From Escherichia coli 042 (lineage in GTDB: Bacteria; Pseudomonadota; Gammaproteobacteria; Enterobacterales; Enterobacteriaceae): DNA of 64,000 bases. Location: assembly GCF_000027125.1 (NCBI RefSeq), contig NC_017626.1. One strand, written 5' to 3'. Each line of letters opens with the position of its first letter. The stretch's first letter is position 1. The position numbers were made by a program. Below are positions 6,001-12,000 of this stretch, piece after piece.

Positions 6001-9000
6001 ATCTTGCCGAACTCCCGGCACCAGAAATAACGCAGGCTGGTTGCATGCACACGCTGATTGGCACATCTTTTTTTCCGCTGGTAAGCCTGAATTTTGGCTT
6101 TCAGGGATGCAAAAAAACGAGAAATCACCGCTGAATCCGGATCGGGATCCATGATGGTGACAGGCATATACTCAGGAAACCGTAAATCCACCCGGATTAA
6201 CGAGACGGCACGGTGTTGCACCAGGGCACTGTTGAGAATACTTTCAAAACGGGATAACCAGTAATCATTGTGTATTGGTTGATTCATGATGAGAGATCTC
6301 CGTTGATTTGGATTGACTTCACATCATTAATCGCCGCGGTAAAACTTTACGGCATCCCACCAATGAGCAACGCCAATAGCTCCTGATTAAAACGGAATGA
6401 ATCGTCCCGTAACGAAAAGATAATCCTGCACACGACAGCAAAACGTAAAACAACGGCATGAATGAGCTAAATGTCTAAAGAAAAACTGCCTTTTCACATT
6501 ATTTTTCAGCGAGTGATCATACCAGCATCCCTAACATACGAAATCGCATCGTGATCGATCGCTGATTCGCCGAACAACTGATCGAATACACCTGAATCTG
6601 CACTAACATCCTGATGGGTAACGGAAGACTAAAAAACCAGTGTTCTATTGATTGCACGGAATGCCTGTGCGCTGGCCTGACCAGTAAGCACAATTCTACG
6701 AGTAGTAAGATATCTACTCCAAAACCATGCGCAGTAGCCACCATATGTTGCCAGGGTGAAAAATAAGCTCAGAACTATAGGGGAGTAATTCCCGTTAATG
6801 TCATCGCCGTACCTCAATCAGCTCACAAACTGGCTGAAACGTTAAGCTGAGGCCTTTATTCTTCAGATGTATTTTCCGGTTTACCTGTAAATTATCTTCT
6901 GATATTTATCACATTAGTAATTGTGCTGATTATCTACATACTTCAAGGTCTGAAATATGAAGCTAACAGAAGAAAGTCTGAATCTAGTCATTGACATCCT
7001 GAATGATTTGATCTGTGAAGGAAAAATGCTGAACGATGTGGAGCGCAGATCTCTGCTCAATGCAGTTATGGCAATTACAGCGGTAAAAGAACGTTCTGTC
7101 GTATCTGTATCATCCCGAAAAGAGCAAAGTAAGAAGGAGAAGAAGGAAAGAGAGATCGATCCTCGTTTCCCAAATGCTGGTGTGGCATGGAATGAGGCAG
7201 ACGAGAATTTATTGCGAGATGTTCTGGAGGATGTACCGGACGATGAAATTGGTAAACACCTTTTCTGGCTGGCAGAGAAACTAGGGCGAACCCCGTACAG
7301 TGTAGCCTGTAAAGTCAGACAAATTAAGAAATTACCTGCAGAATGGAAGGATCAATTTCGTAAAATCTCTGACAGGATCCGTAGTTCTGGAATGTCAGTC
7401 AGTGAATATCTACAACGCCAGGGACTGTTAAGCCCAGAGTCAGGGGAAGAAAACAATCCTGTCAGTCATAACAACAATGTAGCTTAATCCTGAAGAAGAT
7501 GAACAGTTTATACTCTTTAAACTGTTCCCTTAATTTTAGAAAAACAGTTTGTGTAAGTGCATGCTCCAACATTCTGAAGGCATTATTTCTTACAATACAT
7601 CATAATCATTGGCAGATCCTCATCTGAATCAAAACACCACAACCAATCATCACACTTTTTCTGAAAAGAGCCTTATGATGAAGATAATCACCTTACGCTG
7701 AGAAAAAACACTAGGGCCAGTTAATCACCTTATCAATCTCGCCGTTACAAAATCATCCATAAGCCATTTAACAGTGTTATCGCAAACTCACAGTAAATCG
7801 CATCAGGTTACCTCAATCGGATTTGAGTTAATTCACTGGGCTTTACGTAAAGATACTTTTCTCAGGTTAACGACTAAAACACGAAAACTCAGAAAAGGTT
7901 AAACACAGGTTCAGTAAAATCGAATATCATCTTGATTGCTTAAACAGGACAGAGGGTTTTGTAGTGAGGTTAACTGATTTTAGCGATCGTAAAAAAAGGA
8001 CTAACAAATTTACTAAACTGGATGTGTATCAGACAAAGCAATGTGTGTAGCAATGCTTAATGAAAATACTTGTATGATTGTCTATGAAAGTACGTGTATA
8101 ACACTTACTGAAATGCTTAGTAAAAATACGTGTATATAGTATCATACCGACATTCTCAACTCTTCCAAACATCCATGCAGACTGAATGTTGGTTTCAGTT
8201 TTTCACGGCCAGCATGGATCTTTACTGGTCAAAAAACAGACATGTTTACTCTGGAATTATTTTTCTGATTCCGTCTTCAGAACAACAAAAACTCGTGATA
8301 ACTCTACAACAAACTATCGTAATTGGCTTCTGTAACCCCGTCACTTTTCCTAAGAAATGTGCCCCCATATAATGCGGGAGAGATAAGTCATCGTATACAG
8401 GAAACACTGCCAATCATAACATAACGTCATTCAATAATTTTTATCCATAATCAGATGAGCATATCATGATTATTGAATATTATGATATATAACTCATATG
8501 AATGTGTTATTATCTGTAAGCGTTAAGCATCACATTGCATAACCATACTAAGCTGGATAATCATCAACGTTTTTATATGTAACTCATTGAAATTAATTAT
8601 ATGTTTTTTGTGGATAATTAATATGTAATGTGAAATTAATATTTTCACATCATGAACGCCATTTAAAATTACCATCCTGAATATCATATGACAATATATT
8701 TTCACTAAAGCATGAATTGTATATATCTATTAACTCTGGAAAATTATCAGGATTCACCTTCAAATTCACTTGAATGTTACGTTTAATTTCACCCAGCAGT
8801 TCTTCATGTGTGGATTTTATTATCCCTTTCTCATAATCGATAAATACACACATGTTCTTTATGAATTCAAAACCTTTTCCTGTATACAGTTTAATGAATG
8901 CCACCAGAGCAAACATTTCAAGATATAGCCATAATGCCACGTTAGTTTTTTGCAAAGTATAAAAAATTGAATTCGCCACTCTTTTACTTATTGCTCTTTT

Positions 9001-12000
9001 ATACTGTGATCGGGCAAGATTCAGTAGCGGAAGCTCTCGTTCAATAAATGAATGTGAAAAGACTGGATAAATTGATGTAGGAAACCTTTCAGGTCTTATG
9101 ATATTTTCTATTTCCACCATAAATCTATCCATAGAAAGAAAGTCACTTTCTTTTTTTATTCTGGTATAGAGACCGCCTTTATTCCTTTCTGAGGTTTGTT
9201 TTCGTGCTATCCCCCCCAACACTTTCTCTAATTGTTTATTTATCTTCGTATAATTAAATACAACCATTCTTCTTATCATCCTCGGAAGGATAATAATATC
9301 AGTGCTTGAATCACTTGAGCGGCAATTATTATTTATCCATGCAACTTCAAGTTGCAGTATCGGAACATTAACTTTTCTGGGGTGAATATCTCTCTGATAT
9401 CGTTTTTTGTATGCGTTTTCATTAAGATATTCTCTGCTGTAGAGAAACTTATAGCAATATAATCTGATAATATCTTTTATGTAAAATTTAAATAGTTCAC
9501 CTGTAACAGATATATGTTTTCTGCTCAGTAACTCCTGTGTATTAAGCCATTCCCGTGACCGAAGCACACCCTTGTGAAAACTTTTTCTTACTTGCTTTGA
9601 AGCACGCCATTGATGTAATATTTTTGCGTCCTCAATAATTCTCTTTCCCGTTTTATTTTTTGCAGCATCTCTTACTCTATAAAATATCTCCCAGTCCAGA
9701 CTTTTGTCATATCTACTAATTATACGACAAATATTCCTGACCCGACGATTCTCTTTATTTCGCTTCCATAGCTTATAATGATCATCGCATAACCTTAAGG
9801 CATTTGCCTCATCAAATTCTGAAACAGGATTACTGCATTTTTTATTCCGACAGATACCTTTGTTTTTAGCCATACTCTTCTTCCCGTCAATGGAAAAATT
9901 TTCACACCCATATTACCTGAATGATAAACCGGATTAGTGTGATCCGGTTCAGTGAAATCAACAGGATACCGGTATGCCATTCAGCAATTCTTCCCTCTCC
10001 GCGCAAGTGAAATCATATCTGACGTTTCTTCCTGAAGAAATTCGCCAGAAAATCCTTGAACATCTCCACGGTGTTATTCATTACGAGCCCGTGATTGGCA
10101 TTATGGGTAAATCCGGCACCGGCAAAAGCAGTCTGTGTAATGCCATTTTTCAGTCCCGTATCTGCGCCACGCATCCCCTGAACGGCTGCACCCGCCAGGC
10201 TCATCGCCTCACCCTGCAGATTGGTGAACGCAGAATGACGCTGGTCGATCTGCCCGGCATTGGTGAGACACCGCAGCATGATCAGGAATACCGGGAGCTT
10301 TACCGTCAGTTACTGCCGGAACTGGATCTGATTATCTGGATCCTGCGGGCTGATGAACGTGCGTATGCTGCCGATATTGCCATGCATCAGTTTTTACTGA
10401 ATGAAGGTGCAGATCCCTCGCGTTTTCTGTTTGTTCTCAGCCATGCCGATCGCGTGTTTCCTGCTGAAGAATGGAATGCCACAGAAAAATGCCCATCCCG
10501 TCACCAGGAACTCTCACTGGCAACTGTTACAGCCTGGGTGGCAACCCTGTTCCCGTCATCATTTCCGGTACTCCCCGTTGCTGTGCCTGTCGGCTGGAAT
10601 CTTCCGGCGTTTGTGTCGCTGATGATCCACGCCCTGCCACCGCAGGCAACCAGTGCGGTTTATTCACATATCCGGGGGGAAAACCGCTCTGAACAGGCCC
10701 AGAAACACGCACAACAGACTTTTGGTGACGCCATCGGGAAAAGTTTTGACGACGCCGTTGCCCGGTTCACTTTTCCGGTCTGGATGTTACAGCTTCTGCG
10801 TAAAGCCCGGGACCGCATTATCCGCCTGCTGGAAACACTGTGGGATCGTCTGTTCTGACACACTCACGCCGACAGGATGTGTCGCTGGATTAACGAGTAT
10901 TCTTCTTTTTATGAAATCATCATTAAAAATCAGATAATTAAAGGAATATTTTTTCTGCTGCATTTTATTCCTGATTATTCAGATACGACACATCCTTTCA
11001 ACACCATGAGGCATAATAACATCATGAAATAAAAGATGTTTTCTTACGGAGTACACATCTATGTCTGATGATCGTTCCCGGCATGATCGTCTGGCGGTTC
11101 GCTTATCACTCATTATCAGCCGACTGATGGCCGGAGAATCTCTGTCACTAAAGACACTGTCAGATGAATTTGGCGTTACAGAACGTACTTTACAGCGCGA
11201 TTTTCATCAGCGTCTGGTTCACCTGGATTTAGAGTACAGAAATGGCAGGTACAGCCTCAGACGACAGAGCAGCCCGTGTGCGATCCCTGAAATGCTTTCT
11301 TTTATACAGAATACCGGGATCGCACGGATACTTCCGCTCCGGAACGGACGACTGATAACCTTTCTTACCGACAACCAGGAGCCCTCTCCCTGCCTTATCT
11401 GGCTGCCGGCGCCGGATATCACTGCAACGTTCCCCGAGTGTTTCTCGCAACTCATCCTGGCAATAAGACAGTGTATCCACATCTCTCTGATGACTGAGCG
11501 ATGGTATCCGTCACTGGAGCCCTGCCGGCTCATTTATTACAGCGGTAGCTGGTATCTGATCGCGTTACAGAAGGGAAAACTGCAGGTCTTTCCTCTGGCA
11601 GATATCAAATCAGTCAGCCTGACATCAGAACGGTTTGAACGGAGAGGCCACATCCACAGTCTGGTCGCTGAAGAGCGTTTTATCTCCGCCCTGCCACATT
11701 TCTCTTTCATCCATAAACTTATCAACACCTTTAACCTGTGATCGCCGGCCTGCCAAAGCCGTCCCGACAGGTATGGAGACAATATGTTGAACAGAAAACT
11801 AAATATACGGCTACGTCATTCCCTGAACAGTCACTGCATACCTTCCATCATTATCAATAACACCGTACGTTCATTTCAGAGGTCAGTCATGAATACCAGA
11901 GCTCTTTTTCCCCTGCTGTTCACTGTGGCATCATTCTCCGCCTCCGCCGGCAACTGGGCTGTCAAAAACGGCTGGTGTCAGACCATGACGGAAGATGGTC

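What the first reader, a model, noticed from the sequence alone, without database searches (positions are those of the whole stretch)
8650..9873. 407 aa AT-rich orphan protein with N-terminal zinc-ribbon-like motif
Long intact ORF in the lowest-GC part of the element. It has CRNKKC-x15-CDDH near the N-terminus, a zinc-ribbon/treble-clef-like spacing, and is K/R-rich throughout, suggesting nucleic-acid binding. No nuclease, ATPase or other known catalytic motif was recognisable by eye. A single-gene effector of this size is the strongest individual candidate for a new function.
Basis: seen in the sequence. Interest (0 to 1): 0.75.

Follow-up and report, generated by a model that had tools for sequence, protein, structure and literature searches.

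The report
Orphan zinc-finger protein in island slot
A real, selected 407-residue zinc-finger protein of unknown fold and unproven function fills a fast-changing position in the otherwise conserved backbone of a common E. coli genomic island, so it looks like a backbone factor rather than a stand-alone defence gene.

Summary
The ORF is real, but it lies on the minus strand (8650..9873, 407 aa). The C-x4-C-x15-C-x2-H motif is there, and its four ligands are conserved in every full-length homolog down to 22% identity. The gene is under purifying selection (dN/dS ~0.27) and is present in 975 of 5,426 complete E. coli genomes. It was not found in the plasmid or phage collections.

Context is the main result. 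The gene always sits next to a YfjP-type GTPase that heads the DUF932/antirestriction/RadC/CbtA-CbeA module of CP4-57-like islands, divergently in all but one context. In E. coli it fills a ~1.6-kb variable cassette (8282-9898). The flanks are 85-97% identical across islands. The occupant is either this protein or a ~25%-identical homolog without the zinc finger plus a convergent partner gene.

It is therefore a backbone slot gene, not variable cargo. My best guess, at low confidence, is a nucleic-acid-binding regulator or specificity factor. A role in conflict with phages or other mobile elements is not excluded.

The parts
8650..9873 (-). 407-aa ORF (WP_001107219.1, annotated 'hypothetical protein'); 99% identical to UniProt Q1R2M8 of UTI89
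   Evidence: dN/dS 0.27-0.28; found in 975/5426 complete E. coli genomes
9775..9852 (-). Codons 8-33: C8-x4-C13-x15-C29-x2-H32-Y33, a treble-clef-like zinc finger
   Evidence: ligands invariant or nearly invariant in alignments A1, A2, A5; hairpin plus helix at pLDDT ~85
8653..9582 (-). Codons ~98-407: mostly alpha-helical core shared with the finger-less sister family. Conserved across the superfamily: W109, Y139, R147, E176, P197, Y236, P282, L286, R293, E319, Y385, N386
8282..9898 (.). Variable cassette: the ORF, 25 bp upstream of it, and a 3' untranslated stretch. In type-B islands it is replaced by a 2.3-kb cassette with two genes
   Evidence: blastn breakpoints against L089, L093 and L008
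8362..8380 (-). Terminator-like hairpin about 270 nt downstream of the stop codon, near the left cassette boundary
   Evidence: consensus match only
9874..9973 (.). 100-bp divergent intergenic region shared with the GTPase gene. Positions 9899-9973 are conserved with type-B islands. A block at ~9905-9930 (CACCCATATTACCTGAATGATAAACC) has 16 invariant positions across E. coli, Klebsiella, Citrobacter and a metagenomic element
9974..10858 (+). YfjP-family GTPase (MMR_HSR1), the constant divergent neighbour and first gene of the DUF905/DUF932/antirestriction/RadC/DUF987/CbeA-CbtA/DUF4942 module
7618..8281 (.). Non-coding flank conserved (~78%) between type-A and type-B islands. It contains three iteron-like repeats at ~8062-8136
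   Evidence: no Rfam hit; no AlpA remnant
5556..6287 (-). Inovirus Gp2 / YagK-YfjJ family protein (HUH-type Rep-like), the conserved backbone gene on the far side of the slot
   Evidence: 85-97% identical across islands of both slot types

Best explanation
The ORF encodes a backbone protein of CP4-57/CP4-44-like tRNA-associated integrative islands, here the distal arm of a pheV-type ExPEC island. It is built from an N-terminal treble-clef zinc finger, a basic helical linker, and an all-alpha core of a fold not seen in solved structures. It fills a dedicated slot between the Gp2-like Rep/AlpA module and the GTPase-led 'establishment' module (antirestriction, RadC, CbtA/CbeA). It is transcribed divergently from the GTPase across a 100-bp conserved control region. 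I infer that it is a nucleic-acid-binding regulatory or specificity factor of the island. In this reading the zinc finger and basic region bind DNA or RNA, and the variable helical core receives a signal or partner. This would be analogous to the hypervariable, divergently transcribed master regulators of other mobile elements (SaPI Stl, phage immunity regions). Shown: the gene is real and selected; the zinc-finger ligands are conserved; the fold is orphan; the synteny is fixed; the slot is hypervariable between conserved flanks. Inferred: nucleic-acid binding, the regulatory role, and the target.
For: Real and selected: dN/dS 0.27-0.28, similar to the GTPase at 0.16-0.23. 967 of 975 carrying genomes have at least 80% of the gene. 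Zinc finger: ligands conserved to 22% identity, duplicated in P0049, and supplemented by a second Cys-rich unit in P0062, P0067 and L009. Basic N-terminal half, pI 9.8. Backbone rather than cargo: adjacent to the YfjP GTPase in every context examined across five taxa, with the Gp2-like gene on the other side and AlpA there too in Klebsiella, Citrobacter and the metagenomic element. Absent from 72,556 plasmids and 50,697 phage records. Slot behaviour: flanking proteins are 85-97% identical across E. coli islands while the slot proteins are ~25% identical. DNA similarity breaks sharply at 8281 and 9899. The slot was filled in all 20 contexts sampled, either by this gene alone or by a finger-less homolog plus a convergent partner whose C-terminus looks like a ribbon-helix-helix. 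That pattern suggests a DNA-binding function that is fused in one type and separate in the other. Each GTPase allele was linked to one slot type in 10/10 and 10/10 contexts. The MGE class is described in the literature as satellite-like, with integrase, excisionase, HUH Rep and a RadC/ArdB/CbtA 'moron' module (PMC12458937).
Against: There is no direct evidence of DNA binding or regulation. At 48.6 kDa the protein is large for a simple regulator. The divergent intergenic region is ~94% conserved between islands with different slot types, and a 16-position block is conserved even across genera. That argues against type-specific operators in that region. No convincing operator-like repeats were found inside the cassette. 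The RHH reading of the type-B partner is weak: Pfam is not significant and the AF2 model has pLDDT 50. Several polar residues conserved across the superfamily (Y139, R147, E176, Y236, R293, E319, Y385, N386) would also fit an enzyme active site. The structural model rests on only 16 sequences.
Confidence: 0.35

Rival explanations
1. It is a conflict effector: an anti-phage, anti-MGE or anti-defence protein, or a helper-phage interference factor if the island is a satellite. Its rapid divergence would reflect an arms race. It may work together with the adjacent GTPase.
For: The slot protein diverges extremely between near-identical flanks. The gene is AT-rich (33% GC) in a ~50% GC backbone. The fold is orphan. 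The neighbouring module is rich in anti-restriction and TA genes, and related islands carry defence cargo such as type I RM, McrBC and TIR. The GTPase has a weak partial match to LeoBC of the Eleos system (E 6e-7).
Against: PADLOC gave no hit for the protein. It is a fixed backbone gene rather than a member of a cargo hotspot with unrelated occupants, and all occupants of the slot are homologous. LeoA is absent and the LeoBC match covers only ~100 residues. Within a type the gene is under ordinary purifying selection. No catalytic motif was recognised.
Confidence: 0.3
2. It is a DNA-processing enzyme or accessory factor for island replication or mobilisation. Examples would be a new zinc-finger nuclease or nickase, or a loader or specificity partner of the Gp2-like HUH Rep.
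For: A zinc finger and a basic region. Proximity to the Gp2-like Rep and AlpA in every element. Tyr, Glu and Arg residues conserved across the superfamily. Automated UniProt names 'HNH endonuclease' and 'Reverse transcriptase' on some relatives. Iteron-like repeats in the adjacent conserved non-coding flank.
Against: Pfam finds no HNH, RT, HUH or other nuclease domain even at E<=10. No HNH, YxDD or HUH motif is present. The model is almost entirely alpha-helical and matches no nuclease, relaxase or polymerase fold. The slot protein does not co-vary with the Gp2-like protein, which stays 85-97% identical while the slot protein changes type.
Confidence: 0.15
3. It is a decaying or functionless selfish ORF kept only by linkage.
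For: Nobody has reported a function. The gene is AT-rich and probably H-NS-silenced. One of ten sampled contexts has it fragmented (L104). Two of 40 sampled alleles differ in length by 1 bp.
Against: dN/dS is 0.27. Full-length conservation holds at 22-37% identity across genera, with about 80 invariant positions among eight sequences. It lies intact in ~18% of complete E. coli genomes.
Confidence: 0.05

Closest known systems
Type-B slot proteins (314-328 aa 'hypothetical proteins' of E. coli, e.g. P0107, P0150) with their convergent 263-281 aa partner
   Different: No zinc finger and no basic N-terminal ~95 residues. Only ~25% identical. Accompanied by a second, convergent gene that type-A cassettes lack. 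Equally uncharacterised.
SaPI Stl master repressors and phage immunity-region repressors (functional analogy only; from my own knowledge of those systems)
   Same: Divergently transcribed from the operon next door across a short control region. Sequence is hypervariable between otherwise conserved mobile-element backbones. Built as an N-terminal nucleic-acid-binding unit plus a helical domain.
   Different: No sequence or fold similarity. A zinc finger instead of an HTH. The intergenic region here is conserved between slot types, unlike type-specific operators. No repression has been shown.
Ogr/Delta zinc-finger transcription activators of P2/P4 (from my own knowledge)
   Same: Zinc-finger proteins encoded by P4-related elements that control element gene expression.
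   Different: Those are 72-166 aa with C-x2-C-x22-C-x4-C spacing. No Pfam hit links them to this protein. This protein has an extra ~300-residue core.
HNH endonucleases (a name UniProt gives some relatives, e.g. A0AAW5Z6I9 and A0AAW5Z627)
   Same: A Cys/His zinc knuckle followed by 'LCxxHY', reminiscent of zinc fingers that accompany HNH domains in phage and actinobacterial proteins. That resemblance is from my own recollection.
   Different: No HNH Pfam domain and no H-N-H catalytic triad. Only the four metal ligands are conserved in this region.
Eleos (LeoA + LeoBC) dynamin-like defence system
   Same: The neighbouring GTPase shows a weak match to the C-terminal part of LeoBC (E 6e-7).
   Different: LeoA is absent. 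The match covers ~100 of 601 profile positions. The zinc-finger protein has no counterpart in Eleos.

Membership tests
Treble-clef / zinc-ribbon-type zinc finger | Four Cys/His ligands: two from a knuckle or hairpin, two from the start of a helix | tested here: met
   C8, C13, C29 and H32 are conserved in all full-length members. The AF2 model shows a hairpin followed by a helix starting at residue 30, pLDDT ~85.
Treble-clef / zinc-ribbon-type zinc finger | Actual metal binding | not testable with these tools
   Needs ICP-MS or PAR assay on purified protein.
HNH endonuclease | Beta-beta-alpha-metal fold with catalytic His...Asn...His, and a match to Pfam HNH families | tested here: not met
   No Pfam hit at E<=10 for the protein or for any of 16 relatives. 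No HNH pattern. No conserved His apart from the ligand H32.
Reverse transcriptase (the UniRef name of P0016) | RVT palm domain with YxDD and motif A aspartate | tested here: not met
Known anti-phage defence systems (PADLOC-DB 2.0) | A match to any defence-protein model | tested here: not met
   0 families at E<=1.
Eleos (LeoA/LeoBC) | LeoA dynamin-like GTPase plus full-length LeoBC | tested here: not met
   Only a partial LeoBC match on the neighbouring GTPase. No LeoA-like gene in the annotated locus.
Backbone of CP4-57/CP4-44-like tRNA-associated integrative islands | Conserved order: Gp2-like/AlpA, then YfjP GTPase, DUF932, antirestriction, RadC, DUF987, CbeA/CbtA, DUF4942 at the island end | tested here: met
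   the class is described in PMC12458937.
Stl / immunity-repressor-like master regulator (functional class) | Divergent transcription from the controlled operon, and allelic hypervariability | tested here: met
   100-bp divergent intergenic region. ~25% identity between slot types within flanks that are 85-97% identical.
Stl / immunity-repressor-like master regulator (functional class) | Type-specific operator sites in the control region | tested here: not met
   Window 9899-9973 is ~94% conserved between islands with different slot types. No operator-like repeats specific to the cassette.
Stl / immunity-repressor-like master regulator (functional class) | Sequence-specific DNA binding and repression or activation | not testable with these tools
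   Needs EMSA, ChIP or RNA-seq.

The most novel reading that the evidence does not exclude
The slot encodes a new protein fold that acts as the variable 'sensor/effector' of a widespread satellite-like island. It would come in two architectures, one with a fused zinc finger and one with a separate DNA-binding partner. Working with the adjacent LeoBC-like GTPase, it would form an undescribed conflict system (anti-phage, helper-phage sensing or inter-island exclusion) whose alleles diversify by cassette replacement.
Probability: 0.2. Interest if true: 0.8.

Novelty: categorically new. Interest (0 to 1): 0.55.

Why it matters
These CP4-like islands carry much of the virulence, capsule-adjacent and defence cargo of pathogenic E. 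coli and its relatives, yet nothing is known about how their backbone is controlled or moved. The result identifies a backbone position that is always occupied. It is read from a conserved promoter region, and its occupant changes by cassette replacement between proteins of one otherwise unknown fold. This gives a concrete handle for experiments: a likely regulator, sensor or conflict interface of the island. The gene is in about one in five complete E. coli genomes and absent from K-12, which explains why it has never been studied. If it controls island activation or exclusion, it would bear on how pathogenicity and defence islands spread. 'Categorically new' refers here to the protein family and fold, since no characterised relative exists by sequence or structure. 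The function remains unproven.

Tried and rejected
1. Reverse transcriptase (UniRef name of P0016): no RVT domain, no YxDD, all-alpha model. Rejected.
2. HNH endonuclease (UniProt names of some relatives): no HNH domain or triad. Rejected.
3. Membrane protein: the hydrophobic helix 312-330 exceeds KD 1.6 only in the window's protein and carries the nearly invariant E319, so it is a buried core helix.
4. Decayed AlpA gene in the 1.1-kb gap downstream: no tblastn signal.
5. Known RNA in window 1-20 kb: no Rfam match at E<=0.1.
6. Plasmid or phage homologs: none.
7. 'Every YfjP-type GTPase has such a neighbour': false. Only 2 of 80 species-representative loci (L008, L009) do.
8. PDB sequence hits for the isolated zinc-finger peptide (RBBP4 N-terminal helix, E 7e-4): a short helical coincidence, disregarded.
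9. RHH domain in the type-B partner: suggested by the sequence pattern and a weak precomputed RepB-RCR_reg hit. Pfam is not significant, there is no PDB hit, and the model has pLDDT 50. Left as a weak lead.
10. Homology between the N-terminal 104 residues and the type-B partner: none.
11. Operator-like repeats in the cassette or intergenic region: nothing beyond chance-level short repeats. Promoter and terminator scans were at background level.
12. Literature on the accessions: none.
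Full report
OBSERVATION. The ORF exists, but on the minus strand: 8650..9873, ATG start, 407 aa. The plus-strand frame of the same interval is full of stops. The ORF is 33% GC (third positions 28%) inside a ~50% GC island and is the lowest-GC stretch of that island. K+R make up 18.9% and the pI is 9.8. The charge excess lies in residues 1-232, and the last 175 residues are neutral.

IS IT A REAL GENE? It is identical to WP_001107219.1, a 'hypothetical protein' of E. coli JE86-ST05, and 99% identical to UniProt Q1R2M8 of UTI89. It occurs in 975 of 5,426 complete E. coli genomes, with at least 80% coverage in 967. In a spread sample of 40 records, 39 matches cover the full length at 91-100% identity. 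Against alleles that are 95% and 87% identical in protein, dN/dS is 0.27-0.28. The neighbouring GTPase gives 0.16-0.23. Full-length homologs at 22-37% identity exist in Klebsiella, Citrobacter, Salmonella, Trabulsiella and metagenomes. The pseudogene reading is rejected.

WHAT FAMILY? Pfam gave no match even at E<=10, for the protein or for any of 16 relatives. NCBIfam, PADLOC and PDB sequence searches, by single sequence or by profile, also gave none. PHROGs gave only E 0.08. An exhaustive phmmer search of 1.84 billion cluster representatives returned 25 hits, all relatives or fragments. No homolog was found in 72,556 plasmids or 50,697 phage records.

The names 'Reverse transcriptase' and 'HNH endonuclease' attached to a few relatives are not borne out. 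There is no RVT or HNH domain and no YxDD or H-N-H motif, and the only conserved His is the metal ligand.

THE ZINC FINGER. C8, C13, C29 and H32 are kept in every full-length member. P0049 has two tandem copies. P0062, P0067 and the Trabulsiella protein add a second C-x2-C...C-x3-(C/H) unit. The geometry, with ligands from a hairpin and from the start of a helix, is that of a treble clef. Metal binding itself cannot be tested with these tools.

CONTEXT. The window is the distal arm of a pheV-type ExPEC island next to the kps capsule and gsp loci. The gene is transcribed divergently, across 100 bp, from a YfjP-family GTPase. That GTPase heads a conserved module: WYL/HTH, DUF905, DUF932, antirestriction, RadC, DUF987, CbeA/CbtA, DUF5983, DUF957, DUF4942.

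The same divergent pairing, with a gap of ~95-100 bp, holds for homologs that are only 33-37% identical in Klebsiella michiganensis, Citrobacter and a metagenomic contig. In those elements AlpA and a YagK/YfjJ (inovirus Gp2-like) gene follow on the other side. In Trabulsiella the gene lies in tandem with the GTPase rather than divergent. The converse does not hold. Of 80 GTPase loci taken from species-representative genomes, only two carry a relative. A 2025 preprint describes this class of element as satellite-like, with integrase, excisionase, an HUH Rep and a RadC/ArdB/CbtA-CbeA 'moron' module at the far end. It does not mention this protein (PMC12458937). No paper cites the accessions.

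These sister proteins sit in exactly the same place, divergent from a YfjP GTPase across ~105 bp. They are followed by a convergent 263-281-aa gene, and then by the Gp2-like gene and AlpA. Among E. coli islands the GTPases are 86-95% identical and the Gp2-like proteins 85-97% identical, whichever slot type is present. The slot proteins of the two types share only ~25% identity over part of their length.

At the DNA level, similarity between the window and type-B islands stops at 8281 and resumes at 9899, which is 26 bp upstream of the start codon. The 407-aa gene is therefore the sole occupant of a ~1.6-kb replaceable cassette read from a conserved control region. Each GTPase allele was linked to one slot type in 10 of 10 and 10 of 10 sampled contexts. 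The slot was never empty, although one copy was fragmented.

The type-B partner ends in a sequence that reads like a ribbon-helix-helix. Support for this is weak: Pfam is not significant and the AF2 model has pLDDT 50, with coil-helix-helix at the C-terminus. If it is correct, a DNA-binding function would be fused in type A (the zinc finger) and separate in type B.

INTERPRETATION. The 'single-gene effector' idea, in the sense of variable cargo, is not supported, because this is a fixed backbone gene. What is established is a selected protein of orphan fold with a conserved zinc finger, sitting in a hypervariable slot between conserved modules.

My best inference (confidence 0.35) is a nucleic-acid-binding regulatory or specificity factor of the island. 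It would be analogous in layout and evolutionary behaviour to Stl-type master regulators or phage immunity regions. The main argument against this is that the divergent control region is conserved between slot types and partly even between genera. Type-specific operators are therefore not evident there, and none were found in the cassette.

A conflict role (anti-phage, anti-defence, helper-phage sensing or exclusion) fits the divergence pattern and the AT-richness equally well (0.30). No known defence model supports it. The GTPase's partial LeoBC match is only a hint. A DNA-processing role with the Gp2-like Rep is possible (0.15), but no motif or fold supports it and the two proteins do not co-vary.

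VERDICT. By sequence and by structure the family has no characterised relative, so I rate it categorically new at the level of protein family and fold. Its function remains to be shown. Interest 0.55.

Noticed in passing
window ~8052-8136: Three iteron-like direct repeats, AAA(A/G)TAC(G/T)TGTAT, lie in a non-coding flank (7618-8281) that is ~78% conserved between islands of both slot types. They could be an origin or operator for a backbone factor such as the Gp2-like protein.
   Followed up: partly
window 7500-8650: About 1.1 kb downstream of the ORF has no convincing gene, no Rfam match and no AlpA remnant. It is unusually long for non-coding DNA and very AT-rich.
   Followed up: partly
window 6432-7617 (ORF 6957..7487, +): This segment carries a 176-aa hypothetical protein (WP_000778604.1). 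It is present in type-A islands and absent from type-B islands, so it is a second indel-type difference. It has a weak PHROG hit to a 'D5-like transcriptional regulator' (E 0.002).
   Followed up: partly
window 9927-9949: A perfect 8-bp inverted repeat, AACCGGAT-N7-ATCCGGTT, lies in the intergenic region between the ORF and the GTPase. It is present in the E. coli sequences but not in the Klebsiella or Citrobacter elements.
   Followed up: no
window 9974-10858: The YfjP-family GTPase has a partial match to the C-terminal part of LeoBC of the Eleos defence system (PADLOC E 6e-7, residues 185-289). No LeoA is nearby.
   Followed up: partly
P0049; P0062, P0067; L009:5451-6698: The zinc-finger architecture varies within the family. 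P0049 has two tandem copies of the C-x4-C...C-x2-H unit. P0062, P0067 and the Trabulsiella protein carry an extra C-x2-C...YCS-x2(3)-C/H unit. In Trabulsiella the gene lies in tandem with the GTPase, not divergent.
   Followed up: partly
window ~827-5342: The island interior is decayed and riddled with IS elements: an H-NS gene fragment, a frameshifted HTH gene, an intact IS30 (3233..4384) and a truncated IS600 (about 4446..5342), judging from the annotation of the collinear JE86-ST05 record.
   Followed up: no
window ~17700-36000: The island ends near 17.7 kb, after the DUF4942 gene at 16725..17567. A group 2-type kps capsule locus follows (kpsF ~18891-19874, kpsE 19946-21094). Its serotype-specific region is 28-30% GC (27-33 kb). 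By analogy with strain 1105, gsp type II secretion genes should follow.
   Followed up: partly
L093-L095, ~1090-2364: In some type-B islands a group II intron reverse transcriptase (RVT_1 + GIIM) is inserted between the CbtA and CbeA genes of the 'moron' module.
   Followed up: no
L104:3856-4900: In one NCTC assembly the 407-aa gene is split into fragments of 168 and 96 aa. Other genes of that locus are also fragmented, so this may be assembly error or real decay.
   Followed up: no
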